From Azolla caroliniana (lineage: Eukaryota; Plantae; Polypodiophyta): a stretch of 64,000 nt of DNA. The notes beneath the pieces are model-generated. The model saw only the letters and a program-made list of their open reading frames with translations, was not told the DNA's origin and did no database searches. Below are positions 5,366 through 63,925 of this stretch, one piece after another (within the stretch, counting starts at the first letter, position 1; every line of letters starts with the position of its first letter). Both the position numbers and the translations under genes were made by a program. The DNA lies in contig JBHGNT010000007.1 of assembly GCA_043228905.1 (NCBI GenBank), forward strand, positions 19,406,001-19,470,000, read 5' to 3'.

Positions 5366-5839
5366 TGTTGTCCGCCGGAATAGTAACCGAAGGACAAGCG
5401 CGTAGGAATAAGAAATAATATAAGATCATAACGCATGTAACAGTTCATGCAGGAAGCGTGAACAGCTAAATAGACCCAGCGTATATAAAGGGCAGAAAAC
5501 CTCTAATAGAGGGAGCGTGTAATTTTGGAATGTAAAGAAGCGTATCGTAATAGAATTCTATCTTCTTTGAAAGTCTGTATATAGCTACGGCTAATCTACT
5601 GTGTGTCTGGAATATCTAAGCGTGTAAGAACGTAAGTGTAACCATTGCTAAGGAGTCGGTTGTAGCCATCTCCCTTAACCGTTGATAGGTTACGGGGAAC
5701 ATTCCCCTATGCATTACGCATAGACGCCCCATTCGTTGTTCCACAATCACTTGGAGGTCTAGGTCGAAGGACTGACCGAGGACCATGTTCCTAATCGGTA
5801 ACACTTTTGGCACGCTTGGTGATCTGTGTCTTCTCACAG

Positions 5840-8140
5840 ATGAGCAACGACGAATGGATGTTTAGCCGCAGACGCCCCAAAGAACCAACACGACAAGACC
5901 GGCCAATCACACGGTCCGTCACATGCCAGGCAGAGGAACACGCGCGGCAGAAGCCTCGCCTTAGCGACCTTAGTGCTACCTGTCGTGATTACAAAGGTGA
6001 TTCTTCATTCTCCAAACACCTCGACGATACGCGGGGAGCACGCTCACCACAACCACCCTATGGTCTTTCCCGACCCGCCGTAGCCCCCAGTATGGCCTTT
6101 GCCTATCCCCGCTTTAACGACGAAACGGACGCCGCAACCCATATTCGCATGTTCCTTAATGTCTAGAATGCGAACCACATGACACATAGGCTTTCGGAGA
6201 TGGTAGCGCACCAGTCGAAAATGACGGAGTTCGGGTTAACATTGGATGGGCGAGCGGCGTTTTGGCATTCACAGATGGACTTACCAGGAATCACAACCTT
6301 CGATCAGCTGCGCTCCGTTTTCTTGCGGTTCTTCCATCGGAGGGTTCCACAACGCGAAATCCTCGGACAGTTCTACATGATTAAGCAACTGTCGACCGAG
6401 ACGATCGCAAACTTCAGCCTATGTTTCCAAAATTTACGGCAGAAACTAGAACGGAGCCCCGTGGAGGACGAGGCTCGAGAGACATTTCTGGCAGCATTAC
6501 GCCAACCCATCCGGGCAACGCTCAACGACAATAGCGTGAAAGGGGAAACGACGGATATGGTCATTGAACGAGCGTTACAGCTCGAGTTGGATGACGAGGA
6601 AGAAAGGTTTTCTATGTCCTCCTAACGACAAGCGTTACCCCAGGACGAGGAACGCCAGTTTCGTCAAGCAATCCAGTGCACGATTTGCTTGAACTCGGGG
6701 CATTCCGCAGTGCAGTGCAACATGCGAATCCACTGCCCAATCTGCCACTCAAAGGCTCACACAGTCGAACAATGCGAATACAATATGTTGAACAAAGCCG
6801 CTCTCACAGTTCGCAGCATGGACACACAGCGTCCCCCACGCCGTACTGAACAAAGGCGGCAAGAAGACCGACCACGGTATATGGATCGCAACCCATGGGA
6901 CAACCAGCACCATCAAAATCGCCGAAATTACAACGATTCCGAGGAAGAGAAGCCAGAGGATGAGGATTATCGTGGACATCCGAGTTATGCTAAAGGGGGC
7001 CGACGCAATGAGAATCACCGTCCGACAAACAAACATGGCAGCTTCAATGGTTATCGTGGGAAGCCGTGGCAATATCGAGATCACCGGCGTTACGACAAAA
7101 GCTCGGGAGATGAGCAACACCAAGAACCACGACGGGACCAACAATAACCACCGCGTGCATTCCGACAAACAAGGCCGGACCGGGAGGAGCAAGTCGCACC
7201 AGGGGATCGGCACACACCACCAAGAGCCAACAAGGGTGAATCAAGCATCCATTGTTTTATTTGTCAGCAGCCTGGACATTATGCCACGCAATGCCCAGCA
7301 CGCAAGGGCAAGGGGCCCGCTGTCAACACGATTACGGCGGAAGTACAGCAAGTCACGACACGCCAGCAAACTAAAACGGTTGATTGGGCTGCACAAGACG
7401 AGATACGACGACAAGCCCAGACATGGGTGGAAAAAGCAAATGCGACCAATACAGAGCACATGCGGAAGGAGTCCGCGAATACAAGGGAGAAAGCAGAGGA
7501 CGAAGGACCGGTCCCGGACCCCATTTGGCAGGCATACGCGGGTTGCGAGATAACGTTAACAATGGAGAAGCTACTGCAGCTAGTCCCACGCTTCTGCCAG
7601 ACCATAGAAGAACGGGTGACGGGCATACCTGGGGTCAGCGTCGCTACAAACCTTACAGACGTTAGCGATGGCCTACCTGTAGTGGGTCACCACAACCCGG
7701 CTATTACATTAATATTACACGGACAAGAAATTTCTGGATGCGTAATCGATGGCGGCTCAGGCGTCACTGTAATTAGCGCGAAAACTTGCAAGCAGTTGGG
7801 CATTTCAGAATGGGAGGCGTGCCCATTCTGGCTCCAAATGGCAGATACTCACTCAGTACGACCATTGGGCTTAATTCGCAAGATAGGCATTATCGTGGGC
7901 GGACATCGCTTCGACATCTCGGAGGTCGTCCTCGCCTTGGACGCCCCAGGGGCGTACCCAGTGCTTCTGGGCAGACCATGGCTTCGGGCAACAAATATCA
8001 AGTAGAGCTGGCAACACAAGTGTATCAGTTTCCGACACGGACGCACCAAGGTTCGCGTACCTACGGAAGGAAGCACGCCACAACCCAAGGGTATAACACC
8101 ATTATACGCAGAAGATATAAATATGCTGGCTGGGGTGGAG
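5840..8140 (+). pseudogene. gag and aspartic protease of element A
   Basis: Zinc knuckles CTICLNSGHSAVQC and CPICHSKAHTVEQC; protease VIDGGSGV...LLGRPWL; in-frame stops. Homologous to element B gag-PR. Confidence 0.85.
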
Positions 8141-8184
8141 CCCACCGCAACCACCAATCTCCTTCCCACGAACCTACTCTGGCG

Positions 8185-8854
8185 ATGCCGATCTTCATCT
8201 CTACTGCCTTACGCCGATGGCTTGTGGAGAAACGCCTGGATGGGTACATCTGGGTCGTAGAGGCACCCCCACACCCGGATGCGATGGACATCGCTAGGAA
8301 GCTGCACATCGACACGGTCACCAACTCTTCCATCCGGAAAAAGTTGGACCTGTCATCGCTAGGCGAAAGGCATTTCGAAATCCCTCCTACAGAGGCACTG
8401 TAGTGATATTTCGGGCCATATTCCTCCTCCGCCAAGGCCTATAGAACGAAGCAGATCCCGGATCCCTTCTTCCGTGAAGTTGCCAAGTTCCTGTTAGAGG
8501 TCGGTTGCGTACATGTCAATGCATATGGGATGCCCAAGCAGAAGGCGGGCATCATTATCGATACCTTTGAAGGACGTGCGGTCGATTGGGGGGTCATCAT
8601 AGGGTCGGCGTTACGGGAAGGCCTACATGCATATCAGGCAGGCAAAGAGCTCAGGCCGATCATACAACAGTACCTTACGGTACTATTCCCACCCCGAGGC
8701 CTACCGGCACCACAACCCAGCTAGCCCACGCCCCCGCCCCGATCCGCGAAACGCATGTTAGCGGAGTTAGCGGCCGTAGAGTGGGAAGAGGAACCCCAAC
8801 CCGCCTAGCCAGACATGCGGACAACACCTCCCGCCCAGCCAGACACACAGACAA
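8185..8854 (+). pseudogene. N-terminal domain of the extra (post-pol) ORF of element A
   Basis: Reading through TAG TGA at 8401 gives EAPPH...YFGPYS...AYRT...DPFFREVA...MPKQKAGIIIDTFEG..VDWG...LTVLFPP, colinear with the 944-aa ORF. Confidence 0.85.
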
Positions 8855-9161
8855 TGTTATTCGCTTAGCCGGACAAGGCCTAACACAAGGTGTCACGGAG
8901 ACACTTCACCAAAGGGTGATTACGGCATAGGATTAAGATTCAACGATTACACCGACTTACGTAGGTTACACGATTAGATTGCTTTGGTTAATTACACGCG
9001 TAAGATATAACAGTGATTACAGAACGGAAATCAAGACAGAAGTATAAACAACATAAGCTCTACTAATTATCCGCTGTCATTACAATGGGGTCCGGGCCTT
9101 TAAATAGGTTTCCGGCCCGTAGTACAAAACAGTGCCTCTCGCACCTATTCGGGATCCGTCC
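8855..9161 (-). repeat. 3' LTR of element B, missing its first ~40 bp
   Basis: Matches 18098-18402. Follows TGAAGGGG directly after the extra ORF's last codon. Confidence 0.9.
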
Positions 9162-9164
9162 CCT

Positions 9165-11999
9165 TCATTGTTCACCCAAATTGTCCAAAATAGTTTGTTC
9201 AAGAATTTCCACTTGTTCTTCCGGTTGTGGTTGTTGCGGCTGTGCTTGCTGCTGCTGCTGTGGTTGCGGTTGGGACTGAGGCTGCTCCGGCTGCTCTGCT
9301 TGCTGCTGCTGCTCCGTTTGTTTCGCTGACTCCGGCTGCTCCGTTTGTCTCTCTGGCTCCGGCATCTCCGTTTGACTGCTTCCGGTCCGGTCTCCTTCCA
9401 GTAACGGTTCCTCATCACTGAGGTTGACCGTAACTGGTTCTCGTTCTTTCTCTCCCCGGATCCGGGACCTCTCGTAGCTTTCAAACTGGATCTGCGCCTC
9501 CAGCCTGTCGTCGTCCAGCTGAGCTACAAGTTGCCGGACTTGCTCTAGTTGGTCCTCTGCCAAGGCTTGAAAGTCTTCGGCAAGCTCATCTCTTATGCCG
9601 GTGAAGTCTTCGGAAGTCAGCATATAGCAATCATCTCCCTCCTTCCGCCGGTTCTCTACGTCAGCCCGGAGCAATTGGAGTTCCGCCGCGTTCGTGGCCC
9701 ACTTGGTCCACCATTTGACGGACCCGTTGTCAATCAAGCTCTTGGTTTGGTTCAACCAGGCCCGCATTATATCCACCACTTGTCGCTCCTCCTTCAACTG
9801 CTTGATGAGATTTGCCGTATCCTCCGCCTGCTCTCTGTAGCGCGTCAGCTGCCCTTGATATGTCGTTTGCAGCCTCTGCAGTACCTCCGCCGCTCTTTCT
9901 TTTTCCGCGTGCTGTTGCCTGAGGAGCTCTGTCCGAACCTTCTCCGCCTCTTCCAACCGTCTTCTGTTTTCCGCTTGTTCCTTGGCGAATGCGGTTGCGG
10001 TCCGATCAACTGCTTGCCGGAGCTCATCCGTCCGTTCCTTGTGCTCCATTTGCAACCGTTTATACTCTCGGTGCAATTGCTCAAATTCCTCCGTTTTTTG
10101 TTTGAGCTTGCCGTTGATCTGGCGATGGTTCCGGTCTTCCCGGTCCTTTACCTGCCGGAGTTCCTCTTTCAGGCGCTCTACTTCTGTTTCGGCGTTCCTC
10201 CGGAGCCTCTCCTTCTCTTGCAGCATTTTCTCCTTCTCCTCCTTGAGCCGGTCGTACGCTTGGTGGCCTTTCCGTAAGCTTTCCTCGGCCCGGCGTAGAT
10301 TTTCAGCAGTCTTTTTGAGTTCTGCCTCCGCTGCCGTCTTCAATTCTCTTTCGCGGCTCCTCAGCGCTTCTTGGGCAGCTAGCTCATCCTTTAAATCCGC
10401 AAGCTCTTGGGCTTGTGCCGCATTTCTCTCCGGAACGGTTTCCGTTGCCGGGGTCTGATTGCTATGTACAGGTTGATCTGCCGCTTTATTCTGTACATTG
10501 CCCGGAGTCACCGGTGCTTGGACTTGTGTTGTCAAAGCCACTTGAGCCATTTCCCTTGTGACCCTGTCCAAGTCTTGTTCAAGGCTCCGGATTCTGGACC
10601 GGGCCGTCTCTAGATCTACGGTTGTGACGAGCAACCGTTCCTGGTGCGCTCTCTCTTCCGCCTCTATATACTCGACCACTCCGGCGATTTGCTCGCCTAC
10701 CCACCGTAGCCACATGCTACCGGTGCCTTGTTGCTGTACTGGTCGGGTCGGCTCATTCCCTGTGGAATTGTCTGGCCTAAGTGCCTGCATATGCCGTTCT
10801 GGTTCTACTCCTTGGCCGCCGTGTGTGTTGGCTGGGCTCGCCGGCTGTTGAGTTCCGGTTCTCGCCGTCTCCGGAGCCGTTGGACTGACTTCTTCTATAG
10901 AAGTCGACAAGACCGGTTCCCTACGCACCGGTTCCGGTTCCTCCCTTGTGGTTTGCTCAGGTTGAGTTGGGGGCGTTTCTGCCTCTCGCGGGTACGACCG
11001 CTCCCCTCTTGTCTCGGCGGTCCTACTTCTTGACCGTCGTTGGAGGTGCTCTTCTGGCTCCTCCGTTTCCTCTTCCTGTGTCACGGCATGTTTCTGTGCC
11101 GTCAAGGGTTCCGGTTCCTTCTGTCCCGATCTCCGTATGGTTATCTTGACGGGTGGGACCGGTGACACCTCCTCCGGTTCTTGGACCCGTTTCTTCCCTC
11201 TCGTCGCCTTTGACGCCAGCAGCTGCTGTCGTTTGGACGGCGGCTTCGAGGTGCTTCCTTCCGATACTCTTGGCCGCTTCTTTGGCTGGACGGTCTCGAC
11301 CGGCGGCACGAGCAATGTTATCCATTGAGCTACGGCGTGCCACAGCTTCCGGCCCTCCTTGCCGTCCTTCCCTCGTACCATGTCGATTGCCATGCACAAA
11401 CCGTCTGCAATCAACACCGGCCAGTCCACCTTGATCCCTTCATAGGTGGCTATGATCATCCCTGCCCGATTTTTTGGCATGACAGGGGGTCGGGGGTACA
11501 CGTGACCGTACTCATGGAGCACTCGAGCTATCTCCCTGAATAGCGGATCTTCGCCGCCCTGCGTCCGATAGCCTTTGCCGGCAACAGAGTACTCACCGAA
11601 ATATCGGATGAGTTGCTCCGAGGTTGGGTTATCGATCTGAAAGATTCCTCCCTCCGGAAGGCCTGTTAGCGCGCGGATCGCTTCCTCGGTGATGACCTCT
11701 GTGGCGAGCTCCTTGATGACCCGGTCGGCTTCTCTGTGCGGTGGTGCCTCCATGATGGCCAAGAACCCCTCCAGTCCGTTTTGCCTGAACCATTTCCTGG
11801 CCGCTTCCGACAGCGTTTGTGGTTCCATGTCTGCTTCAAGGTCGAGGGAAGATGGCGAAGTAGAGTGGTGTTGAGAGTGAGAGCGAGAGAGAGAGCGTTC
11901 TGAGCGCGGGGGTTCTCTGCGTGCAGGTTCGCGTTTGCTCAGCTTCCACTGCCTTGGTGCTTCTGTGCTTCTTGGCTCGCGAAAAAAGAAGGTCTCCAT
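9165..11999 (-). CDS. 944-aa extra retrotransposon ORF of unknown function: globular N-domain, basic/Pro-rich linker, long coiled coil, conserved helical C-domain, Q-rich tail
   Basis: Uninterrupted ORF between pol and the 3' LTR on the sense strand. Homologs at 8185-8854 and 46951-48200. Alternative start MEPQTL at 11828. Confidence 0.88.
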   Translation of the reverse strand: METFFFREPRSTEAPRQWKLSKREPARREPPRSERSLSRSHSQHHSTSPSSLDLEADMEPQTLSEAARKWFRQNGLEGFLAIMEAPPHREADRVIKELATEVITEEAIRALTGLPEGGIFQIDNPTSEQLIRYFGEYSVAGKGYRTQGGEDPLFREIARVLHEYGHVYPRPPVMPKNRAGMIIATYEGIKVDWPVLIADGLCMAIDMVRGKDGKEGRKLWHAVAQWITLLVPPVETVQPKKRPRVSEGSTSKPPSKRQQLLASKATRGKKRVQEPEEVSPVPPVKITIRRSGQKEPEPLTAQKHAVTQEEETEEPEEHLQRRSRSRTAETRGERSYPREAETPPTQPEQTTREEPEPVRREPVLSTSIEEVSPTAPETARTGTQQPASPANTHGGQGVEPERHMQALRPDNSTGNEPTRPVQQQGTGSMWLRWVGEQIAGVVEYIEAEERAHQERLLVTTVDLETARSRIRSLEQDLDRVTREMAQVALTTQVQAPVTPGNVQNKAADQPVHSNQTPATETVPERNAAQAQELADLKDELAAQEALRSRERELKTAAEAELKKTAENLRRAEESLRKGHQAYDRLKEEKEKMLQEKERLRRNAETEVERLKEELRQVKDREDRNHRQINGKLKQKTEEFEQLHREYKRLQMEHKERTDELRQAVDRTATAFAKEQAENRRRLEEAEKVRTELLRQQHAEKERAAEVLQRLQTTYQGQLTRYREQAEDTANLIKQLKEERQVVDIMRAWLNQTKSLIDNGSVKWWTKWATNAAELQLLRADVENRRKEGDDCYMLTSEDFTGIRDELAEDFQALAEDQLEQVRQLVAQLDDDRLEAQIQFESYERSRIRGEKEREPVTVNLSDEEPLLEGDRTGSSQTEMPEPERQTEQPESAKQTEQQQQAEQPEQPQSQPQPQQQQQAQPQQPQPEEQVEILEQTILDNLGEQ

Positions 12000-12152
12000 G
12001 CGCTCTTCTTTTTCTCTGTGCGTCTTGGCGCCTTTTTTTCGAGCATGCGCACGTCGTGTACCGATTTAGTATTAAGTACGTGGCGGCTCTTAAATGCCCA
12101 CTACGTACCTTTTCGCTCCTTGCTTTCACACCCGTTCATACCTCGATTTTTA

Positions 12153-12199: not shown

Positions 12200-15100
12200 T
12201 TACACATCCGTAGGTCCCTTCGGACCCTTACCGTTTTCCTTACGGGTTGCCGTTTCTTCCTTCGTCTCTGCTACGGGTTCCCCGTCGTCTTTTTCTTCCG
12301 GATCGATCCGTACCGATCCCGAACAGGTTCCCGGTATAGTGCCGGTGTGCTGCATAAACGGGTTCTTTGGCATTGGTCCTTTATAGGGCTTTAGTCGAAA
12401 TCCATTCACCCACTTGCCTAGTACTTCCCCGGCAAGTGTCCCTATCTGATAGGATCCGTTGTATTCCCGTGTCAGCCAATACGGGCCTGTCCATCTGAAC
12501 CGGAGTTTACCCGGCATTTTGCCCATCCTCGTTTGGAATACTAAAACCGGCTTTCCGATTTTGAACATCTTTTCGTTACCTTTCCGGTGACGGTCAACGA
12601 ACGCTTTCCGTCGTCGTTGCTCCAGTTCCATGTGGAGGATGCTGGCCAGCCGTTGCTCCTCCAGTTCGCATAGTGCTGCTAGCCGCATTTCCTCCGACTT
12701 CTTTTCATTCAGCCGTTCCCGTAGTTGGATCCGTAAGCTTGGTACCTGAAACTCGACCGGCATGACCGCTTCTAAGCCGAATGCTAGCCGGAACGGCGTT
12801 GTCCGGATACTTGTTTTGTATGCCGTTCTGTACGCCCATAGCGCGCTATGGAGCTTTGTATCCCAGTCCGTCCGGTTTTCGTTGACGATTTTGCGGAGAA
12901 TGTTCTGCAGCGTTTTGTTGGTGGACTCTGCTAACCCGTTCGCCTGTGGGTAGTACGGTGTGCTTCGTTTATGGACCACGGCATAGAACGTTGTTAAGCT
13001 TTCCACTACCTGGCCAAGGAAGTGGCCTCCTTGGTCGCTGATTAATTCAATCGGACATCCATATCGGCACCAAATGTTTTCGTACAGGAATTTTGCTGTG
13101 GATGACGCGGTGTTGTCTCTCAGGGCCTTAGCTTCCACCCATTTCGTGCAATAATCCGTTGCCACGATGACATAACGATTACCTGTTCTCATTGCCGGTG
13201 GCTTGAACGGTCCGACAAAATCCAACCCCCACTTCTGGAATGGCTCTAGTGGAAGTACCGGTTGGTGTGGCATCCGTGCTTGCTCCGTAGGCTGGCCCAT
13301 TCGTTGGCATAGGTCACATTCCTTAGCATACTTGACGGCATCTTTTAGCGTCGTGGGCCACCATAAGCCGCTCTGCCATACCTTTCTTGCCGTCGCTTCC
13401 CCGGCATAGTGTCCTCCGGCAACCCCACAGTGTGCTTCCCGTAAGATTACTTCTTTCTCGTCACTACGGACTGCCCGTCTCCATATTCCATCTGCTCCTT
13501 TGTGGTAGAGAGTGTCCCGTAACAGACAGAAATTGCGGCTCTGCACCGCCAGTCGTTTCCTCTCGTCCCGGTTCATTTCCTCCGGTGGCAGGCCCGTGCT
13601 TAGGAACTGGTGCATGTTTGTCAGCCACCTATCTTCTGATGCCACCGTGTCGTCCGCTGCCGTTTCCGGGGTGATACGGAATAACTCCGCGTCCGGGAAT
13701 TCATCCGCTACTCCGTCGCCTGGTTCTCCGGACTCTAACTGGCTTAGATAGTCTGCTACGGCATGCTGGATACCGGGGCGGTGGAAGATCTCGAATTCGA
13801 ACTCCTGCAAAAGCAAGGTCCAACGGGCCAACTTACCGGTCAAGGACGCCTTGGATACTAAGTACAGGAGCGCCGAGTGATCCACATGGAAGGAGAACTT
13901 CCTTCCCAATAGGTAATGACGAAACTTTGTTACACTATAGATCATGCCCAGGGCCTCCCGTTCTGTCGTTGAATAGTTCTTCTCCGCTTGGGACAGCTTC
14001 CGGCTGGCGTAATATACCGGCCGGTACCATTTAGGCTCCGTAAGTTGCATTAAGGCGCTGCCGATAGCGATGTCGGACGCGTCAACGAACACGTGAAATT
14101 CCTTGCTCCAATCCGGAGGCTGCACGACGGGCGCTTGCGACAAAAGCACCTTCAGGGCATTGTATGCCTTATCCTCCGTATCCGTCCATTGGAACGGTGT
14201 CCAATGTACCGCGGTGTGTAATGGTGTAGCCAAATCAGCCAAGTGACGGAGCATCCGGCTGTGCCACCGGATCTGTCCTAAGAATCGGCTTAGTGCTTTG
14301 GCTGTTTTCGGTGCCGGCGCCCCTAGTATGGCGTTTACTTTGTCCGGGTCGACCGCAATGCCCTCCTTACTTACAATGTGTCCCAGCAATATTCCACTTG
14401 AAACTCCAAAGATGCATTTCGCTGGGTTTAAGCTTAGCCGGTATAACCTACACTTTTCAAGGCATAACCGTAGGTGCTGCAAATGGTCTTTTCCCCGGCT
14501 ATAGACTGCAAAATCATCCAGGAAAACTTGCATGAAGGCAGGAATGTATTCGCCGAAGATCTCCATGATGATTCGCTGGAAGGTTGCTGGTGCCGTTTTT
14601 AGGCCGAACATCATGACTTCGGCCACAAACACCCCCCATTCGGTGACGAACGCTGTCTTCTCCTGGTCGTCCGGGTGCATCCGGATTTGATTGTAACCAC
14701 TGAACCCGTCTAGAAAGCTATAAACTTCATGGCCGGCGACGGCATCCAGTACTCCGTCCGTGAACGGAAGAGGGAATGCATCCGTAATTGTGGCGGCATT
14801 TAGTTTCCTATAATCTACACACACACGGATTTTACCGTTCTTCTTGGGGACGACGACGATGGGGCTCAGCCACATCGCTTTCTTTACCGGCCGGATGAAG
14901 CCCACTCTTAGGAGTTTGTCGATTTCCTCCTTCACTTTGGCGGCGTAGTTGGGGTTCATTCGGTATCGTCTTTGCGCCACTGGTTTCGCGTCCTTGCCTA
15001 AGTGGATCTGATGCTGATATAATTGAGGGTCCAGCCCTCGCATGTCTTCGTATGACCAGGCGAATACGTCGCGAAACTCCGTGAGAAGTTTGATCATCGC

Positions 15101-16087
15101 CGCTTTATCTTCCGGCTTCATTTCTTTGTCGATGTGTTCCGGCTTTGATTCGTCCTTGCTTCCTAGGTTCACTTCGTCGAGCTGGGATGCTTTTACCCGT
15201 TGGGAAACGGCCATCTCCCGTTCCAACGCTTCCTGTGCTTGCCGTAATTCCCGAATCGCATCTTTGTCTGGTTCGGCTTCGGTGTCGTCCCGCTGCGGCA
15301 AGTATGCGGCTACGGCTTCAGCTACGTCTATCTCGAAGAGTGGTACGATCTTCGGATGTTCCTCCAAGTACTGGGCTTCTTCGTCGTCTGCCAATCCTTC
15401 AAGCATGTTCACACATTCCGCATACAGCGGTGTGCATTCCTTACCATTGCTTGTCCGTGGTTGTGTCGGAACCCGGACCTTGGCTTTTCCGCGCCGGAAG
15501 GTAATCATATTTTTCCGCCAATTTTGCTTGATGTGTGCTGTTTTCAACCATGGTCTGCCCAGCAGCAGTGGGTACGCGCCTTGCGCCTGTAGCTGCAGCA
15601 CTACAGCCGAGATGTGAAATGTGTGGCCTCCTATGGTGACTTCCAATTTCCGTATTAAGCCCGTCGGCCGTACCGAGCTCGTATCCGCCATCCGTAGCCA
15701 GAACGGGCATGGCTCCCATTCATGTATACCCAAGGCATCACACGTACGGAGGCTTATTACGTTCACCCCGGAACCTCCATCGATTACTGTGCCGGGAAGT
15801 TCGTGCCCTTTGACAATAGCTGTAATCACCGGACTGCTAGTGTCCACTACCGTCGGTCCCTCCTCCGGGTTCGAGAAGAGGACTGGTGCCGGTGGGGCTA
15901 TGCCGTCTGTCATGCCCGTTTTTAGCCCTTCCGTAAATCGCGGCACGAGCTGCAAGAGTCTTCCTAACGGCAACGTGATCTGACATTCTTGCAGTGCTTG
16001 CCATGTCTCGTTTTCTGGGTGGCTACCGCCGGCACTCCCTATGGTAGTTTGCCTTTTGCCGTTCCGCGTCCGCGACGTTCTTTTCAT
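12200..16087 (-). CDS. pol: Pol polyprotein (protease, RT, RNase H, integrase with GPY/F)
   Basis: VIDGGSGVN; FLDGFSGYNQI...VFLDDF; VDASDIAIG...DHSAL; HHCC plus GLDFVGPF...SDQG...E; WTGPY. No chromodomain or extra RNase H visible. Confidence 0.95.
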   Translation of the reverse strand: MKRTSRTRNGKRQTTIGSAGGSHPENETWQALQECQITLPLGRLLQLVPRFTEGLKTGMTDGIAPPAPVLFSNPEEGPTVVDTSSPVITAIVKGHELPGTVIDGGSGVNVISLRTCDALGIHEWEPCPFWLRMADTSSVRPTGLIRKLEVTIGGHTFHISAVVLQLQAQGAYPLLLGRPWLKTAHIKQNWRKNMITFRRGKAKVRVPTQPRTSNGKECTPLYAECVNMLEGLADDEEAQYLEEHPKIVPLFEIDVAEAVAAYLPQRDDTEAEPDKDAIRELRQAQEALEREMAVSQRVKASQLDEVNLGSKDESKPEHIDKEMKPEDKAAMIKLLTEFRDVFAWSYEDMRGLDPQLYQHQIHLGKDAKPVAQRRYRMNPNYAAKVKEEIDKLLRVGFIRPVKKAMWLSPIVVVPKKNGKIRVCVDYRKLNAATITDAFPLPFTDGVLDAVAGHEVYSFLDGFSGYNQIRMHPDDQEKTAFVTEWGVFVAEVMMFGLKTAPATFQRIIMEIFGEYIPAFMQVFLDDFAVYSRGKDHLQHLRLCLEKCRLYRLSLNPAKCIFGVSSGILLGHIVSKEGIAVDPDKVNAILGAPAPKTAKALSRFLGQIRWHSRMLRHLADLATPLHTAVHWTPFQWTDTEDKAYNALKVLLSQAPVVQPPDWSKEFHVFVDASDIAIGSALMQLTEPKWYRPVYYASRKLSQAEKNYSTTEREALGMIYSVTKFRHYLLGRKFSFHVDHSALLYLVSKASLTGKLARWTLLLQEFEFEIFHRPGIQHAVADYLSQLESGEPGDGVADEFPDAELFRITPETAADDTVASEDRWLTNMHQFLSTGLPPEEMNRDERKRLAVQSRNFCLLRDTLYHKGADGIWRRAVRSDEKEVILREAHCGVAGGHYAGEATARKVWQSGLWWPTTLKDAVKYAKECDLCQRMGQPTEQARMPHQPVLPLEPFQKWGLDFVGPFKPPAMRTGNRYVIVATDYCTKWVEAKALRDNTASSTAKFLYENIWCRYGCPIELISDQGGHFLGQVVESLTTFYAVVHKRSTPYYPQANGLAESTNKTLQNILRKIVNENRTDWDTKLHSALWAYRTAYKTSIRTTPFRLAFGLEAVMPVEFQVPSLRIQLRERLNEKKSEEMRLAALCELEEQRLASILHMELEQRRRKAFVDRHRKGNEKMFKIGKPVLVFQTRMGKMPGKLRFRWTGPYWLTREYNGSYQIGTLAGEVLGKWVNGFRLKPYKGPMPKNPFMQHTGTIPGTCSGSVRIDPEEKDDGEPVAETKEETATRKENGKGPKGPTDV

Positions 16088-16089
16088 TG

Positions 16090-18046
16090 GCTTCCTTCAC
16101 CCATTCCGTCGCCTGCTTTCGTATGGCCTCTTGTGTTTCCCACTCTTTGGCCATGCCTTTCGACCGTGTGGTTACTTGCTGTACATCCGTCACTTCCGGA
16201 ACCACCATATTAACTGTTGGTCGTTTCTCGTAGCTCTTTACCGGGCACTGGTTACTGTAGTGGCCTTCCTGCCTGCAGTAGTAGCAGTACTCTTTACGGG
16301 TATTGCTGGATTCAGCATTGCTGGTTGCCGGAGTCGGTCCCGTAGCGAGTGGTGCGTTCTGTGCCGGTTGGCTCCTTGGGGTTCCATGTTCCGGGGTCCC
16401 TAGGGTGACTTACCTTTCTTGAAATTACGTTTCTTATTATTCTTATGTTTATTTCGGTAGTCCGGTCGTGGTGGATCGTAAAATCGGCCGTATTCCTCCT
16501 GGTGCCTTCGGTAACCAGGGAATGGTCTCTGTCGTATTGCTCGTGTCGCCTGTTGGGCTCTCGATAACGGTCCGATCGCTCATACCGGTCGTAGTTATCA
16601 CGCCGATTCCCGTACCGGCCATCATTCTCTTGCCTGTCTCCGTACCGGACATCCTGTGCCGGTCGGTACCGGTTCATTTTTTTGCCAACGATCTTCATCT
16701 TCGTCTTGGCTGTTTCTTGGCTCGATCCGTCGGACGGGTGGTGCTTGTCGATTTAACAAGTTGTACTCGCACCGGTCCGTTGTATGACTCTTGGATTGAC
16801 AAATCACACACTGAGTGCGCATGGTGCACTCTACTGCCGAGTGTCCGGCATTCAAGCAGATTGTGCATTGAATTGCCTGCCGGAACCGGAGATCTTCCTC
16901 GGTGGGTAACGCCCGTTGCAGTGTTCCCAGCGTAAGCCATGAGCTTGTCTTTTCCATTTCTCTGACCCGGTCAATGACCTGGTCGATGGTGCATCCTCGA
17001 AGTCGATTACCGTACACACCGTGCGTAACGGTTTCCCGAGTCCGTTTAAAAATATCGTCCGTAATTCCTCCTCCGGAGGTGCTACGGGCAAGCTGGCTAT
17101 GCATTCGTTGGAAACGGATGACGAATTGGGGAATGCTTTCCCCTGCCTCCTGCCAGATCGTATAAAACAGGCCCACCATTGTCGTCTGGTCGACCTCCTT
17201 GTGGAAAAAATGCAAGAATTTTGCTTTAATTCTGCAAATGTTGTGATGGTCGCCGGGTCCTGCGACCGCCGCCATCGTGTCGCTGGTCCCTCCAACGTGA
17301 CTCCGAATTCCGCTATCTTCGAGCGTTCTTCTTCCTCCGGTGTCATTCGCTGGGACGTGTGATTTGCTTCCCATGTCTGCTCGAAGTCATCAACATGCGC
17401 TTCCGCATCCGGGTCATCGCGGTACTTTTGAGTATTGGAACGGCATGTCGGTCGTCCAGTATTAGGCGCGGTTTAGTGGCGTTTGTTGATATCTTCCCGG
17501 TTCTTTTTCCGGTTCCACTTCCGGTTCTTTTGCCGGTGCTTTTTCCGGTTGTTTCGCCGGTTGTTTCGTTGGTGTTGGTGGCTTTGCTTCTTCCACTTCC
17601 GGTGTTGGTGGGTTGACAGCTTCCGTTTGCGGTTCCGGATAGCCCTGATTGAGTGGTTCCGGTTCTGGAGTCGGCACGGTATCCGACCCGTCGTCTTCCG
17701 GGCCGCCGGGGGTATCGTTGCTGCTCCGGTAGTTCGTGTGCACGCTGTATCCCCCTTCGGAATCCGATTCGTAAGCTGAAAAGGCTTCTGCCTCGTTTTC
17801 TCCGCTTGCCAGCGCCTCCAGGAGTCGTTCGGTTTCCCGGAGACTACTTAGACTGCTTCCGTCGTCCTGGTCGCGAGTTTGCCCGTAACCGGAGAGATTC
17901 CTCCGCGACTCTCTGGATCTCGTTGGAGAACGAACGATCCGAGCGAATTTCCTACGCTGCTTGCTGGAAAGTCTCACGCCGTCTTGTGCCGTTCGGCGAG
18001 GCGTCGAGCTCGGTCTGTAAGCAAGGTCGTGCGTTGGTCTAGTCAT
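16090..18046 (-). pseudogene. gag: gag of element B, split by several frameshifts
   Basis: Fragments in alternating frames (SKIAEFGVTLEG, QEAGESIPQF, CTICLNAGHSAVEC, CVICQSKSHTTDRC) align to element A gag. Confidence 0.85.
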
Positions 18047-18097
18047 CCATTACCGTCGTTCGCTGCGAGAAAGCAGGAATCGTGGTCGCCAAAACTG

Positions 18098-18444
18098 TGT
18101 TATTCGCTTAGCCAGACAAGGCCTAACACAAGGTGTCACGGAGACACTTCACCAAAGGGTGATTACGGCATAGGATTAAGATTCAGCGATTACACCGACT
18201 TACGTAGGTTACACGATTAGATTGCTTTGGTTAATTACACGCGTAAGATATAACAGTGATTACAGAACGGAAATCAAGACAGAAGTATAAACACATAAGC
18301 TCTACTAATTATCCGCTGTCATTACAATGGGGTCCGGGCCTTTAAATAGGTTTCCGGCCCGTAGTACAAAACGGTGCCTCTCGCACCTATTCGGGATCCG
18401 TCCGGATCTGGAACGGCATACCGTTTCCAGTCCGTCCGTCCACA
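18098..18444 (-). repeat. 5' LTR of element B
   Basis: Adjacent to the PBS. The outer TG end is placed at 18444 and is approximate. Confidence 0.8.
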
Positions 18445-18509
18445 TTATGCTCATTTACAACCATATCTAATTAATTCCTTCACTCCGTATTTTGGACTCC
18501 GTATTTTGG

Positions 18510-19845
18510 CTACAATACTTAAATTTAAAAACTCATCCACCTAAAGAAATGGACGTGATCGACCACGACAACTCACAAAATCAACAAAAGGAAGATACAC
18601 ATACACACAACATTTTTGGACCCATGACGAAGTTCGTAAGTCGACAGAATGAGAATGTTCGTGTCGCGGAAGATTTGCTGACCAACAAAGATGGTCGAGT
18701 CAAGCACTCCGATCGAGGGAGTCGATCGTTGAAAGGACCGATGGAAGTTCCGGTCGAAGAAATATCATCATCAAGGCATGTGGGATCGATGTGCAAGGCA
18801 CTCTCCCACGGGCGTGCCATATTGTGTTACCCCGTACGAGATGTACGGAGAGTCAGTGTGATGAGCGAGGGTCGAATGTTATCATGATGTTGTTGTGTAT
18901 GTGTAGGGGACATAAATGTAATTGTGAGTCTATACGTATGTGAACACATGCACACACGTGTGCATGTGTTCACATACGTATAGACTCACAATTACATTTA
19001 TGTCCCCTACACATACACAACAACATCATGATAACATTCGACCCTCGCTCATCACACTGACTCTCCGTACATCTCGTACGGGGGTAACATTGAGGTTCAC
19101 TTGGTATTGGGCCAACTCTTAGTCGTCGAAGCTATTGTTGTAAGTTGTTCTGCTCCAAGCGCCTTTGTGAAGATATCCACAACATTTTCTTATGTTAGGC
19201 AATACTCAAGCTCCACAATCTCATCATTTATTAGCTCCCGCACATAGTGATACTGAATCTCTATGTGTTTGGTACGTGCATGAAATACGGGGGTTCTTGG
19301 AAATGACCATGCAACTCTGATTGTCACACCTCAATACCGTTGANNNNNNNNNNNNNNNNNNNNNNNNNNNNNNNNNNNNNNNNNNNNNNNNNNNNNNNNN
19401 NNNNNNNNNNNNNNNNNNNNNNNNNNNNNNNNNNNNNNNNNNNAAGAGAGATCATATAGAGAAGCATTGCGGGGTGGGGGGTGGTGCCTAGAATGGCCCC
19501 ACCCCCCTCCCAAGGGGGTTCAACGTGAAGAGAGGGAGAGAGAAAAGGTGTCAAAGAGAGAGAGATTAGAGAGAAAATGTTCATTCATATTCATTCATTC
19601 CCATAAGGGGTTAAATAGTACAAGAGGGGTAGATACATAGGGGTGTAAGCCCCCTCGAGCATTCATACTAGACACTCACTCACACCTCCTCGTATCCATC
19701 CACATGCACACACGTGTGCATGTGTTCACATACGTATAGACTCACAATTACATTTATGTCCCCTACACATACACAACAACATCATGATAACATTCGACCC
19801 TCGCTCATCACACTGACTCTCTCGTACATCTCGTACGGGGTAACA
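18510..19845. mobile_element. Small non-autonomous LTR element (tRNA-Arg PBS), rearranged around the assembly gap
   Basis: LTR ending CGTACGGGGTAACA occurs on both strands. PBS TGGCACGCCCGTGGG on minus at 18819-18805. The LTR resembles 37944-38308. Confidence 0.65.
19344..19443. other. Assembly gap (100 N)
   Basis: Run of N. Confidence 1.
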
Positions 19846-28641: not shown

Positions 28642-28968
28642 TCACCATGGTGCGCACTATGCACATGGCATCTTGAGGAGTCACTATGCACATGGTTCCA
28701 AAGTTGAGATATCTTTTCAATAGCTTTTTGAAATAAAGACCCATTCTTTGATAACAAAAGTCAATTCTTCTTAGCAAGACTGAAGAAAAACCTTCAAAAA
28801 AACAAATCTCTTTATTCTTCTACAGTTATGTATAGTTATCTCCTCTTCTACATTGTAAAGCCTTTGCATGTATAGTTATCTCCTCTTCTACATTGTTTCA
28901 TCCAATATCTCCTTTCTCTCCACAATTACTTCCACTTCTCACATTACTACTGATAACAAATCCTTTGC

Positions 28969-31107
28969 ATGTATCCACTTTTAAGCATGGTTAGACCCAT
29001 GAGCATTACTAGTACTCTCTATTGCCTTCTATTTCTGCTGTCTTCCTTTACACTACTGCGAACCTCCAATTCTTGCACGAGAGGAGAAGCCGATGCCCTT
29101 CTCCGGTTCACGAATGCTGTGGACATAACATCTCTCAAATATTGGGGTTTAAGAAACAGCAATGGGAACTTAATCATCAATGGGAACTTAAACAGCAATG
29201 AGAACTTAAACAGCAATGGGAACTGTTGTGATTGGGAAGGAGTGAGTTGTGATGCTGTTTCTGGACAGGTTGTGGGCATTTCTCTCTCCAGCAAAGGTCT
29301 TAATGGGACTTTAGCTGCAGGATTAGCCGACATTCCATCTCTTCAAGTTCTCAACGTTTCGAATAATTACTTACATGGGCCTCTCCCACAAGATCTCTCA
29401 ACGCTCTCATCCCTTCACACTCTTGATGTCAGTAGCAACCATTTCTCAGGCCAGCTGTCTGATGTATTAGTGAATTTGAGCTCTTTGCAATTGCTTAACC
29501 TCTCTACCAATGCCTTCAATGGTAGCTTGCCTTCTTCCTCTTCAAGGAATATGACCCATTTAAGGCTTTTTGTGTCTAGCAACAATGATTTAAGTGGAGA
29601 TTTGCCATTCCACCTATGCCAGAGTGCCAAATTCCTTCAACACTTGGATCTATCCTCTAACAATTTCTCAGGAACGCTCTCAAATGGTCTTGGCATCTGT
29701 CGTTCTCTCCGAGTATTGGATCTTGGTCACAACAACTTGGTGGGTAATCTACCCCGAGAACTCTACAACCTAACCTCATTAACAATGCTTCGCCTCACAA
29801 ATAACCATTTCGATGGCATGCTAGATAATGCCATTGGCAACCTAATCAATCTCTCTCATTTGATGTTGGGCTCCAACAACTTCACCGGACAACTTCCCTC
29901 GAACCTATCCTCGTGTACAAACCTAAAGGTATTCATCGCGGACACAAACAAATTCACTAATTCATTGGACATCGTCCCATTCAATCAATTCCCGATGCTA
30001 GAGAACCTTGATCTCAATAGCAATGCTTTTGTCGGGTCAATCCCATCCCCGTTAACGGAGTGTGCAACGCTCAAGAGCATAAACCTTGCGCACAACAAAC
30101 TTTCGGGGGAGGTCCCATCATCTTTGTATCGATTGAAGAACCTAACCACACTCTTGCTATCAAGCAACAGCCTTAATGTGAGCATAAGATCACTCGATGG
30201 GAGTGAACACCTCGTGGTGGTGATCTTATCCGAGAATGTGGTCTACGAGGCACTACCCGATAAGATGCAAGGGTTCACTAATCTACAATTTTTCTCTCTC
30301 AATAACATTGGCCTAAGGGGTTCGATTCCTGAGTGGTTGAGGATTAGTACAAAACTACAAGTGCTTGACCTTTCGTGGAACAACCTAACCGGATCAATCC
30401 CATCATGGATAGGGTCCTTTCCACATCTTTTCTATTTGGACTTATCCAACAATGCTTTCTCCGGAAATATACCGCCCGAGCTTTTCTCGTTGCTGGCGCT
30501 TATAAATCCCGATAACAACCTTACGGGATTGCAATTGGTTGTTAACAACCTCGCCATAGAACAAGAACTTGATGCTCAAGAGCTACAATACGCGCAAGTT
30601 TCAGATTTAGCTCCCTCGATTTACCTCTCCCACAATCACCTCCAGGGGTCCATACCTTCACAAATTGCTGCTTTTGTCATGCTTTTCGAGATGGATTTGA
30701 GTTTCAACAATTTATCGGGAAACATCCCAGACGCGATTGGCTATATGAACGATCTAAAGAGCCTTGATTTGTCACACAACTCTCTCACTGGTTTAATACC
30801 TCCAGCATTGGCAAATCCTTGGTTTCTAAGTTATCTGAGTGTTTCGTACAATCAACTCGAAGGTCCAATACCTCTCGGAAACAAATTCTCGACATTTTCT
30901 AACAAAAGTTATGAAGGGAACTCTGGTCTATGTGGTGCCCCTTTATCCTTTCCTTGTGGGAATGATGATGCCAACTCCTCTTCAGGGAGGACCAAAACCC
31001 CCATTAAGGCCACTGATATTTTTGAGCCGATTGGTGTGGTCATTGGTTATGTTGCATTCATAGTGGGCTGGTTCACTAGGTATGTCACGAGAAGAAAGAT
31101 GGGATAA
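28969..31107 (+). CDS. Intact intronless LRR receptor-like protein (PSKR/PSY1R/RLP2-3-like ectodomain, no kinase), 712 aa
   Basis: Signal peptide, N-cap CCDWEGVSC, ~20 plant LRRs, island-like segment, C-cap GNSGLCG, TM helix, short basic tail. Confidence 0.93.
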   Translation: MYPLLSMVRPMSITSTLYCLLFLLSSFTLLRTSNSCTRGEADALLRFTNAVDITSLKYWGLRNSNGNLIINGNLNSNENLNSNGNCCDWEGVSCDAVSGQVVGISLSSKGLNGTLAAGLADIPSLQVLNVSNNYLHGPLPQDLSTLSSLHTLDVSSNHFSGQLSDVLVNLSSLQLLNLSTNAFNGSLPSSSSRNMTHLRLFVSSNNDLSGDLPFHLCQSAKFLQHLDLSSNNFSGTLSNGLGICRSLRVLDLGHNNLVGNLPRELYNLTSLTMLRLTNNHFDGMLDNAIGNLINLSHLMLGSNNFTGQLPSNLSSCTNLKVFIADTNKFTNSLDIVPFNQFPMLENLDLNSNAFVGSIPSPLTECATLKSINLAHNKLSGEVPSSLYRLKNLTTLLLSSNSLNVSIRSLDGSEHLVVVILSENVVYEALPDKMQGFTNLQFFSLNNIGLRGSIPEWLRISTKLQVLDLSWNNLTGSIPSWIGSFPHLFYLDLSNNAFSGNIPPELFSLLALINPDNNLTGLQLVVNNLAIEQELDAQELQYAQVSDLAPSIYLSHNHLQGSIPSQIAAFVMLFEMDLSFNNLSGNIPDAIGYMNDLKSLDLSHNSLTGLIPPALANPWFLSYLSVSYNQLEGPIPLGNKFSTFSNKSYEGNSGLCGAPLSFPCGNDDANSSSGRTKTPIKATDIFEPIGVVIGYVAFIVGWFTRYVTRRKMG

Positions 31108-37943: not shown

Positions 37944-39695
37944 TGTTAATGGGTGGGGGGTGAAGCCAAGAGAGGCTCCACCCCCCTCCCAAGGGGATTA
38001 CGTGTGAGGGAGAGAGAGAGAAAACAAATAAGAACGACACCAAAATGAGAGGGGAAAAAGTTATGTTACATTATGCCCCATGGGTGGGGTTTATATAGTA
38101 CAAGAAGTAACCGTTAGAAATAAATAATGAGACAAGTAGGGAGTTATAGTACTTACCCACTTTCTCACCTTTGTACACATGCACACAAATGTGGATGTGT
38201 TCATACACATACTCATTCTCATACACTCATTCATATTACACATACACATCAACCACATTATCGTGTTCCACCCCTTATGCCTCCCCGTATATATTCTTAC
38301 GGGTAACAAATGGCACGCCTGTGGGACAATGCACTACACGGTGAACCCACTCGCCATGGCAACTCTTCTCGATCGGAACTCCATCGGTCGTCTGAACGGT
38401 CGGAAAATCCCTCGACTGGATCACTGCTCTACGATCGATAACTTCGATCAGAGTTTTGCTTGACTCGAACCTTCTCATTCGGTCAACACAAGTCGCGATT
38501 CGATCATACACCAATCGGCTAGTTCACTATGGCATGGGTCGTGAAATCATGTTGTGTGTTTGTGTGTTCTTTCTTTCATCACGTAAGTTGTGTTTTTGAA
38601 ATTCCATGATTTGTACCCCTTGGTTTTAGAAATTTTCACGTTTATCCTCAAATTTTTGAAATGTTAATCTTCTACCCTCCGGTTTTTGAAATTAGATTGT
38701 GTACCCTCAAGTTATTGAAAAATTTTCTGTATGCCCTCTCTCTTTACCTTTCCTCGTTTTTTTCTCTACTTTCTTTCTTCTCAATTTGTCTCTTCTTCCT
38801 CTTTTTCTTCTTTTTCGATTTTCGACTAGCTCCGTTATCTTTCTTCTCTCTTTCATGATCTTCCTTTTTGTGAAAGGCCCATGTTCCCTCTGCGGGTTCA
38901 GTTGATTACATGAACACAACAGACATGACTTCCTGGATCGCCTAGGAACTCCTCCGCTTATCAGAGGCCCACTCACCTATGTAGTGCTTCGTCTTCTTCA
39001 GGGCTCCATGGTCCTTTGATCCGATCAACTACCAACTTTTGATGATTACGATGATGATGATGGATATGGCTATGGCTATTGCTATGATCGTGATGGATAT
39101 GGCTATGGTGGTGATTATGATTATGGGAAGATCGATCTAGCTCGAAAGGCAAAGGTGAAGGAGATGGTTGGATTGTCGCATCAGAGATCAACATTAGTAG
39201 CAATCTCTCTACTTTCTACTTCTGTTATACTTCTTCTCTCCTCCTATTCTGATGGTTATATTTATTCCTCTATGCTTCTTCTACCACTACCTTTGTCTCC
39301 TTTTTCTATTGCTACCATTGTCTCCTTCTTCTCTTCCTTCCTCTATCCTCATGACGCTACTATTCTTATCCTTTCTTGATCCTTCTTATTGAGGATCCTC
39401 CCTTCTTCTGCTCCATGTCTTCGCTTGCTCTTCGTTCCGGCGTCTCCTTTCGGCCGACTGTCAGTCGTAAGCTATCACTATCTGCCAACTGCCTGATGCC
39501 GGCCATATCCATCCACTGGTTGCCGGTCCGTCGACTGTCAGACGGTCGTCTCTCAGTCCAGTCGGCTCTCTGTCGGCTGTTCGGGATGCTAGCCATCTTG
39601 CTGGTTCTACTGCCCTAGGTCGTCCACCGTATGTCCGCTAGCCAGCTCTGTCATCGTCCACCAGTTCGGATGTCGGCCACTCGCCATGTTCGATG
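37944..39695 (+). mobile_element. Non-autonomous LTR element (5' LTR 37944-38308, tRNA-Arg PBS), no 3' LTR seen
   Basis: TGTTAA...GGGTAACA followed by TGGCACGCCTGTGGG. Non-coding interior; same family as 18510-19845. Confidence 0.7.
38860..39203 (-). pseudogene. Degenerate R2R3-MYB fragment (MYB44/73/77-like R2 repeat) with a His-rich leader
   Basis: DRIKGPWSPEEDEALHR, then in another frame LISGGVPRRSRKSCLLCSCNQLNPQREHGPFT, matching the consensus LIS..IPGRSGKSCRLRWCNQLSP.VEHRPFT. Confidence 0.85.
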
Positions 39696-45898: not shown

Positions 45899-46950
45899 CA
45901 TTCTTACAAGTGGCTATTAATATTTGATTAAGGATGATGGTAGATTTTGAAACATAATTGACATTTTAAATTGCCACTTGCAACAAAGGTCTTCAATAGG
46001 AAAGTATTGATTGGGGTTTGCCTTGGAGATTAGCTTTAAAATTACACTCAACTCTCCGTACATCTCGTACGGTGACAATTCTAAAACACATTCTTTTGGT
46101 ATAGTTGTCATGTGGTGAGATTTTTATAATCTCTTAAGACAAGGTATTGAAGTAATAGAAAGTGAAGAAGCACACAAAAGGACAAAAGGCATGAAAGGCA
46201 TGTTGATGATATCATTCAAGTGCCAAATCAATAGGTTTAGGCTCGCCGCTCTCCTGAAGGCAACACCTTCGATTCCTAACCGGAATCGGACCAAAGGACT
46301 GTGGTACGTGGTGGTCAGATCACTTTTACGAAACGGAATGACACCCTACAAATTATGTAAGAGGAACCCTCGGCTATGCATACACGATAAGGAGAGATAG
46401 GTTACTTAACAATTATTAAAAGCAAACAATGACAAAATCATAGTCCCAACACTGTTTAAATTACGAAGTGAGTAGTGATTACAGTTAGACAACTATCTGC
46501 CGGAATGTATCAGATACACTATAGTAGGACTAGTTACGTAGTAACCTCCGACTTCTCTCCTATACCTTCTCCTATCCCTTTTTCCTTCGATCTGTTGCTC
46601 CTTATATAGATGTTCCTTGGTGCGCTCCTTCTCCTTCCACGTTTACGGCTGTGTCTATTTTGGCAGCTTCTGATTGATTTCGATTATTTACCTACTGCTA
46701 CCTAATACCTATTATGTTTCACATATGTTACTATTTTGGCCCACTGACAATACCTTGCACACCCGTGGGACAATGCCTTGGCACGTCAAACCCAACAAAT
46801 CGAAATTTCCCATTCGTAAAAAACTTTGTTGAAATTAATTCAGTATATATTACAGTTAATCCTTGGTCAAAATGTGGAGGACTCCCTCCGTCTGGTTTGG
46901 TTCGGTTGTTTCGTGTTTTGGAATGGTCGCAGGGTCGGGTCGTGGTGCGT

Positions 46951-48200
46951 TGATGTTTTTGGCCGAATTGTCTGTTGCAAGCTCCTTTTTGTCATTGCTT
47001 GGGGATCTCAGGGAGGTTGGGGTGTGGCTGTCCGGCTTTATCGGTCGGTCGTTGATTGCGGGGCGTTATCGTTCAAGGCTTGCTCCGTTTCGATCGTCAG
47101 CGGCATTTGGTCGTCGTTGAACTCCTCAAGGAGGGTGTCGATGGCTTTGGTGTGGGCATCGGCTAGGGCATGAAAATCCTCGATGAGGTCTTCTCGGATC
47201 ATTTGTATGTTGTTGTCGTCCATCTTGTAGAAGCCTTTTCCTTCTTTCCTTCGGTGTTCAGCCTCCGCCCATAGGACTTGCAATTCGGCTACTTGAGACG
47301 ACCATTGCTTCCAACCTGCAGCTAGTGTTTCATCGACCTTTTTGTTTAATATTTGCCACTGCTTCATGACTAACGCATTGATGCGTTCCTCCCATGTGTC
47401 GTACATTGTTTGAACAGCCAGCGTCTCGTGCTTGGCTTTTTCTATGTCGAGCCGTAATTTCGTCGTAAGAAGTTCGTAGGATGTATTGACTGACTTGACC
47501 CTTGCTGCTACTTCCTCCGTTACTTTGTTGATTCGTTGACTAAACTGTGTGCGGGCCTCCTCCAATTCTTTTATGTGCTTCTCTTGCATCTATTCTCGTT
47601 CGTGGATACTATCCATTTGGTGTTTGTGGAGCTCGTCAAATAACCGGATGCGCTAGTTTTCGGCGTCTTCGTATTTTTGCAAAGATTGACTCGTGCATAC
47701 CTGCATTTCCCTGAGTTCTTTGTTCAGTGAGGCGATTTGTGCGGTTGCAATGTCCTATATGGACGTAATAGAGTTGGTCGTTTTTACTTCTGTCTCCTTG
47801 AACTTAGCCGTCTGTTCTTGTAGCGCCTTCGTCAGTTCGGATTCCTTGTGCATGGCTTGCTCCTTGCTTTTGATGGCCTCCGCTTGTGCGTGCTCGTAGC
47901 GTTCTTTCACTTTTTCTACAATGACTTTGTGCACAACGATCTCTTATTCGTACTGGCGAATAGTTTCGCCAATATCTTCGTTGCTTCGCATGGAAGTTGT
48001 CACTAGAGCGGTAGGGCAAAGTGGTCTGGTATGATCGGCCATGTCGGTTCGTTCGCATGCATCGGGATGGTTCATTTGTGTCGTTGTGCTGGTCTGTTCG
48101 GGCCGATGTGGTAAGTCTGCATTGGTTGATTGGTCATTGGAGATAGAAGGGGGAGGCGGTAGAAGGAGCGGTGGTGGCTGATCCTGTGTTCGAAGCTGCT
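46951..48200 (-). pseudogene. Coiled coil and C-terminal domain of the extra ORF of element C
   Basis: WKQWSSQVAELQVLWAEAEHRRKEG...IREDLIEDFHALAD aligns to WTKWATNAAELQLLRADVENRRKEG...IRDELAEDFQALAE. Confidence 0.85.
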
Positions 48201-54004: not shown

Positions 54005-54023
54005 TTTACCTACTGCTATCTAA

Positions 54024-59479: not shown

Positions 59480-60400
59480 TCTAATACCTATTATGTTTCA
59501 CATATGTTACTATTATGGCCCACGGACAACAATAACTACAAACATTTATTAGTTATTGAATCACGATAGGATTGATGACAATTGATGAGTGAAGGGTCCT
59601 ACAATGTGTGTGTGTAACAAACAAACTATACTCATAATCCACGCATGTTCAACCTCAAAAAAATATTTTAAACTCATGACCCAATTAAGTATCATGAGTC
59701 AAACAAACACATTATCGACACCTAGATAGTGAGAAATATTAAACGGGAAATCTAGTTTGGGTTTATGTGCTCAAATTTAAATCTTAGACAAATTAATAGT
59801 TACACAAAAGGACATTTCCAATCATCGAGGTGTTGGCTAGACACATTGGGGGTGGGAGTTGAACTACACCTAATTCAAAGCAAAGGCATAAACCAACTTA
59901 GCTCAACAAGTATCACTATGACCCCTATATATGACACTGAAACATAAATGCAAACCTCAACTTGTTAGGACACACTAGACATGCCATACCTTTAGAGTCA
60001 AAAACTATAGAAAAAGGGATAGACCTCTAGTCCATAATGGGAAGAGTTAGAACTACAGGCTATACTACTTGAAACAAAACTAAGAACATAACTTTGTAAC
60101 ATACAATGTCCTATGTAAGTTGGCGCCAAGTAAACATGAGTTGACCAAAGTAATGGGTCACCAAACACCTAGGAAGTCTGTTACTAGTGAAGATTCATAA
60201 CTAGGTACAAGAACTTTGATACAACACGCTCCATTAAAGTTTACCATTCTAGACATTGTCAATCTAGTCCACTCCCATACACATTCCTCTCACGTTCACA
60301 ATGTGCACTTTCGATTGCAGCATTTATCAATAAAATTCTTGAATGTTGAGAGTTGCTACTCAATTCCCCACTTACTACGTAAATGTTATTCAATTTTAGT

Positions 60401-63853: not shown

Positions 63854-63925
63854 GTCGTTGTAGTATAGTGGTAAGTATTCCCGCCTGTCATGCAGGTGAC
63901 CCGGGTTCGATCCCCGACAATGGCG
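63854..63925 (+). tRNA. tRNA-Asp(GTC), possibly decaying
   Basis: Matches the plant cytosolic tRNA-Asp GTCGTTGTAGTATAGTGGTAAGTATTCCCGCCTGTCA... with intact A and B boxes and four C>T/G>A changes. Confidence 0.88.

What the first reader, a model, noticed from the sequence alone, without database searches (positions are those of the whole stretch)
9165..11999. Intact 944-aa accessory ORF downstream of pol defines a conserved, uncharacterised Ty3 protein family
Seen: a stop-free 2.8-kb sense ORF lies between the integrase stop and the 3' LTR. It has a ~175-aa globular N-domain, K/R-rich NLS-like patches (PKKRPR, RGKKR), a ~300-aa coiled coil, a helical C-domain and a Q-rich tail, with no signal peptide or TM segment. 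Two other, nucleotide-diverged elements in the window carry clear protein-level homologs of the N-domain (8185-8854) and the C-domain (46951-48200). Known: Athila, Tat/Ogre/Retand and SIRE elements carry extra ORFs, some env-like and some with Transposase_28/Transposase_32/plant-mobile domains. Inference: this is a selected, soluble and probably nuclear accessory factor (anti-silencing, integration targeting or particle scaffolding) rather than an envelope.
Basis: partly seen in the sequence, partly recalled or inferred. Interest (0 to 1): 0.85.

Follow-up and report, generated by a model that had tools for sequence, protein, structure and literature searches.

The report
VANC-like third gene in plant retrotransposons
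A group of plant jumping genes carries, after its copying enzymes, a large extra gene kept intact by selection, whose front part is predicted to fold like VANC21, a transposon protein that binds DNA and lifts host silencing, so it likely helps these elements switch themselves back on.

The parts
9165..11999 (-). ORF3, 944 aa from the first in-frame ATG; 887 aa from the family-wide M58 at 11828
11295..11828 (-). N-domain (aa 58-235), mostly helical, predicted VANC21-like fold; conserved K142, K176, R178, R217, the YFGEYS block and D192-W193
11187..11285 (-). Basic patches PKKRPR (aa 239-244; K240 basic in about all rows that reach it) and RGKKR (aa 267-271; not conserved as such); putative NLS
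10530..10712 (-). Conserved middle helix (aa 430-490, begins WLRW) after a variable P/E/T-rich linker
9765..10412 (-). Long proline-free charged helical region, inferred coiled coil (aa about 530-745)
   Evidence: crude heptad score only
9450..9776 (-). Conserved C-domain (aa about 742-850; W..W, ELQ.L.A..E.R..G..Y pattern)
9177..9203 (-). Short hydrophobic-acidic motif at the extreme C-terminus after the Q/E-rich tail; kept in the distant subfamilies
12089..12096 (-). TATA-like box in the pol-ORF3 spacer; candidate internal promoter (inferred)
12200..16096 (-). Open pol frame: protease, RT, RNase H, integrase; no aRH and no chromodomain hit
16100..18050 (-). gag region, frameshifted in this copy; one 1937-1944-codon gag-pol frame in relatives L001 and L042
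18082..18091 (-). Primer-binding site 6 nt inside the 5' LTR; shared by 6 loci
18098..18500 (-). 5' LTR; outer end disturbed, close to an assembly gap at 19344-19443; no target-site duplication found
8855..9161 (-). 3' LTR, inner end missing, so the ORF3 stop abuts mid-LTR sequence
8188..8694 (+). Decayed N-domain homolog (37%) in an older element (about 5366-8854, gag-protease then ORF3, RT-integrase absent) interrupted by the focal element
47083..48138 (-). Decayed coiled-coil/C-domain homolog in a third element, several stops

Best explanation
This is a selected third gene of a non-chromovirus Ty3 retrotransposon lineage, and its product is likely a nuclear, sequence-specific DNA-binding regulator that counters host silencing of its own element family, as VANC21 does for VANDAL21. 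Shown: open frame, fixed place after integrase, purifying selection, co-descent with integrase, faster change than pol, no membrane segment. Predicted: the N-domain has the VANC21 fold. Inferred steps: a TATA-like box in the spacer drives a subgenomic mRNA; the basic patch takes the protein to the nucleus; the N-domain binds short motifs in the element's non-coding DNA; the long helical half oligomerises; the acidic-hydrophobic end motif recruits a host factor. It would act in trans, also on deleted copies.
Confidence: 0.5

Rival explanations
1. The protein binds DNA or chromatin with the same fold but acts at integration: it would tether the pre-integration complex or cDNA to chosen chromatin, standing in for the chromodomain this lineage lacks.
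For: Same fold evidence; no chromodomain in pol; co-descent with integrase; long helical spacer.
Against: No call links it to integrase; a separate promoter-like box fits a free regulator; insertion sites could not be examined (no genome held).
Confidence: 0.17
2. The VANC21 match is a chance helical likeness; the protein is a new-fold scaffold, for example for particle assembly, RNA condensates or movement through plasmodesmata.
Confidence: 0.18
3. It is a PMD-fold DNA-binding protein that limits the element (self-repression or copy-number control) or acts only as a plain transcription activator, without touching DNA methylation.
For: MAIN/MAIL1 with the related PMD fold act in silencing and against Polycomb; acidic-hydrophobic end motif; no tandem target arrays found.
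Against: Faster change than pol with retained frame fits host conflict, as reported for VANC against its transposase.
Confidence: 0.12
4. It is an envelope-like membrane protein, as proposed for sense ORFs of Athila, Bagy-2 and SIRE.
For: Position and orientation are those of env-like ORFs (PMC7264820, first third read); long helical region.
Against: No hydrophobic 19-mer above 1.31 in five full-length members, only 2 cysteines; no viral-protein fold match.
Confidence: 0.03

Closest known systems
VANC21 of VANDAL21 (MuDR-like DNA transposon; DUF1985; PDB 9lnk; PMC5735166 passages)
   Different: Here in an LTR retrotransposon; 9% identity, no DUF1985 hit; compact 178-aa domain against a 255-residue span in VANC21; no tandem target arrays found; function untested.
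Athila sense extra ORF between pol and 3' LTR (ATHILA PF03078; Transposase_32 PF20167; PMC6317226 section 9, supplements 4 and 5)
   Same: Sense, 3' of pol, in an element without aRH or chromodomain; nearest named Atlas clusters.
   Different: No Pfam hit; PBS does not match the window's tRNA-Asp beyond 5 nt; shorter element (about 9.6 kb against a 12.3-kb mean); no TM segment; RT lineage not placed.
Ogre/Tat PMD (+ coiled coil) and Retand Transposase_28 (+ Smc-like) extra ORFs (PMC4408406 passages and section 11; PMC11963269 part 2 and passages)
   Same: Globular N-domain plus long coiled coil in an extra ORF of a non-chromovirus Ty3; DNA binding predicted for TRP28; PMD is reported to be structurally like DUF1985.
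   Different: Those are mostly antisense and in aRH-bearing Tat elements of seed plants; here sense, no aRH, no PF10536 or PF04195 hit.
Phygy and Selgy clades (PMC6317226)
   Same: Non-chromovirus, no aRH; length near Phygy (mean 8.6 kb).
   Different: Reported without extra ORFs; membership not testable here.

Membership tests
VANC anti-silencing factors | DUF1985 (PF09331) sequence match | tested here: not met
   0 of 104 and 0 of 51 members, and the full ORF; profile searches of PDB sequences missed VANC21
VANC anti-silencing factors | VANC21 fold | tested here: inconclusive
VANC anti-silencing factors | Encoded by a VANDAL/MuDR DNA transposon | tested here: not met
   Encoded in a Ty3 LTR element
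VANC anti-silencing factors | Short target motifs in tandem arrays in own non-coding DNA | tested here: inconclusive
   No clear 6-7-mer enrichment in 7 regions tested; a 45-nt unit is repeated 2-3 times upstream of ORF3 in one subfamily, in frame
VANC anti-silencing factors | Sequence-specific DNA binding and demethylation of own family | not testable with these tools
   Needs DAP-seq/ChIP-seq and bisulfite data
Athila sense extra ORF | Sense ORF between pol and 3' LTR, element without aRH or chromodomain | tested here: met
Athila sense extra ORF | PF03078 or PF20167 match | tested here: not met
   No Pfam hit; Atlas features 0.84-0.85 are a lead only
Athila sense extra ORF | RT/RH/INT phylogeny inside Athila | not testable with these tools
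   REXdb FASTA supplement too large to read
Athila sense extra ORF | tRNA-Asp primer (dominant type) | tested here: not met
   PBS matches the window's tRNA-Asp gene end for only 5 nt including CCA; one tRNA copy only
Ogre/Retand (Tat) extra ORFs | aRH domain in pol | tested here: not met
   No second RNase H family hit in three pol proteins
Ogre/Retand (Tat) extra ORFs | PMD (PF10536) or Transposase_28 (PF04195) match, mostly antisense | tested here: not met
   No hit; ORF is sense
Env-like ORFs | Transmembrane segment | tested here: not met
   Highest 19-residue hydropathy 1.16-1.31 in five members
Env-like ORFs | Spliced subgenomic mRNA | not testable with these tools
   No run on record as RNA was listed

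The most novel reading that the evidence does not exclude
A VANC-type, sequence-specific anti-silencing gene carried by LTR retrotransposons of a seed-free plant lineage. The PMD/VANC fold would then have travelled on Ty3 elements before flowering plants, and would be the source of Athila, Ogre and Retand extra ORFs, of VANC and of the host MAIN/MAIL genes, rather than a late capture from the host.
Probability: 0.25. Interest if true: 0.8.

Novelty: new variant of a known kind. Interest (0 to 1): 0.52.

Why it matters
The role of extra ORFs in plant LTR retrotransposons is described as unknown (PMC7264820, PMC6317226, PMC4408406). In the papers I read, sequence-specific anti-silencing is shown only for DNA transposons. 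A compact 178-aa domain with many natural variants gives a direct test by DAP-seq and expression, and could yield new sequence-specific epigenome tools. It also bears on an open question: whether TE-borne or host PMD came first (left open in PMC5418596; host capture proposed in PMC13547354). That part depends on the host being a seed-free plant, which no call of mine established.

Full report
Observation. The ORF is on the minus strand: stop-free 9165-12065, ATG 11999, 944 aa. It follows an open pol frame (12200-16096; RT, RNase H and integrase by Pfam, protease weakly) and ends at an LTR copy that matches 18098-18403 at 303 of 307 positions, so the insertion is young. The copy is defective: 13 non-triplet indels against L001 in the gag region, and the inner end of the 3' LTR is missing when compared with relatives.

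Family. A five-sequence N-domain profile found 276 cluster representatives at E<=0.001 among 1.84 billion, 143 at 1e-10 (150 listed). A second search listed 120 of 207 hits, all from ENA or JGI assemblies and at most named 'hypothetical protein', including a subfamily at 22-30% identity. Of 98 confirmed metagenome stretches 80 were fetched. In 30 of these 80 a related integrase segment lies upstream on the same strand; most others have too little upstream DNA. L001 and L042 have one gag-pol frame of 1937 and 1944 codons. No chromodomain or aRH family was hit, which puts the element among non-chromovirus, non-Tat Ty3 by the features in PMC6317226 (section 9, passages, supplements 4 and 5). Finer placement was not possible. 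The host is a land plant by inference (LRR receptor-like gene; copia-like elements).

Selection. By Nei-Gojobori counts against the window copy, 53 of 80 loci covered the N-domain; 22 had saturated dS, and the other 31 gave dN/dS 0.05-0.39, median 0.17; 19 of the 53 carried a stop. The coiled-coil region gave median 0.095 (4 measurable of 18), the C-domain 0.12 and 0.19 (2 of 14), the linker 0.36 (14 of 20), integrase 0.03 (6 of 10). Fourteen further pairs, 11 without the window copy, gave pN/pS 0.12-0.41 for the N-domain and 0.36-0.86 for the 57-codon leader. In the same elements the N-domain changes 3-6 times faster than RT or integrase. Integrase and N-domain trees (17 rows; 3 of 20 candidates dropped for short coverage) agree in their well-supported groups. 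One frame spans N- to C-domain in 10 of 14 loci.

Start and expression. M58 is the family-wide Met (53 of 53 against 37 of 245), and the distant subfamily begins there. The leader is open for 57 or more codons in 27 of 31 close relatives, so both starts are possible. A TATA-like pattern lies 150-380 nt upstream of M58 in 30 of 31 sequences (one of these is an unrelated A-rich hit, and the control is not composition-matched). An internal promoter is inferred. No transcript evidence was obtained.

Mechanism. VANC21 binds a nine-base motif in non-coding parts of its own family and causes loss of DNA methylation (PMC5735166, passages). Its DUF1985 domain is reported to resemble PMD, and PMD occurs in Gypsy extra ORFs with a coiled coil. 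I therefore favour a nuclear DNA-binding anti-silencer acting in trans (0.5). Rivals are an integration tether (0.17), an unrelated scaffold (0.18), a plain activator or self-limiter (0.12) and an envelope (0.03). The VANC hallmark of tandem target arrays was looked for and not clearly found.

Novelty. Extra ORFs of the domain-plus-coiled-coil type are known in Ogre, Retand and Athila, with unknown function. This family fails the sequence tests for all of them and for VANC, so I do not file it as a member. New are the sequence family, the sense position in an aRH-less lineage, and the link to the VANC21 fold; eight literature searches showed no description, with the VANC21 structure paper and subscription journals unseen. 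An earlier unchecked note of this scan reports a VANC-like gene in the LTRs of an element in another genome; I saw it after my own result, and it is not independent proof. Verdict: new variant of a known kind, interest 0.52.

Noticed in passing
window 18804-18819 (+), 46755-46770 (-), 38311-38326 (-); L005:6412-6466 and 11 more ORF3-bearing loci: Where a polypurine tract should be, the family has a conserved segment ending in CCA, 2-5 nt before the LTR, with a small hairpin showing two compensated pairs (3 window matches against 0.02 expected). A gapped pattern from it hit 20 stretches, 15 of them tRNA-Arg genes. It suggests tRNA-type priming of the second strand. The focal copy has lost it. 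The scan has noted this many times in this genome.
   Followed up: partly
window 5366-8854 (+): Older element with LTR end at 5803, PBS at 5808-5815, gag and protease joined directly to ORF3; RT to integrase absent. L072 and L020 have other internal deletions that keep ORF3 parts.
   Followed up: partly
L010:1-3800: A distant Ty3 element (28% RH/integrase identity) with its own LTR and short tandem repeats is inserted at the pol-ORF3 boundary of a family member.
   Followed up: yes
L001:6333-6866 against window 11295-11828: dS of the N-domain (0.105) is lower than dS of pol domains (0.22-0.52) in the same pair, a hint of recent recombination between subfamilies.
   Followed up: no
L024, L029, L038, L042, upstream of the N-domain: A 45-nt unit is repeated 2-3 times in frame between the TATA-like box and ORF3.
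   Followed up: no
window 18825-19083 and 19344-19443: A perfect 126-nt inverted repeat and a duplicated stretch beside a 100-N gap; probably an assembly artefact that hides the element's outer junction.
   Followed up: no
window 28957-31107 (+): Open 716-codon LRR receptor-like gene with a C-terminal hydrophobic segment.
   Followed up: partly
window 48300-59500 (+): Two tandem copia-like elements (84% alike) with 54-nt and 40-nt tandem arrays near their LTRs.
   Followed up: no
window 63854-63925 (+): tRNA-Asp(GTC) gene called by ARAGORN.
   Followed up: partly
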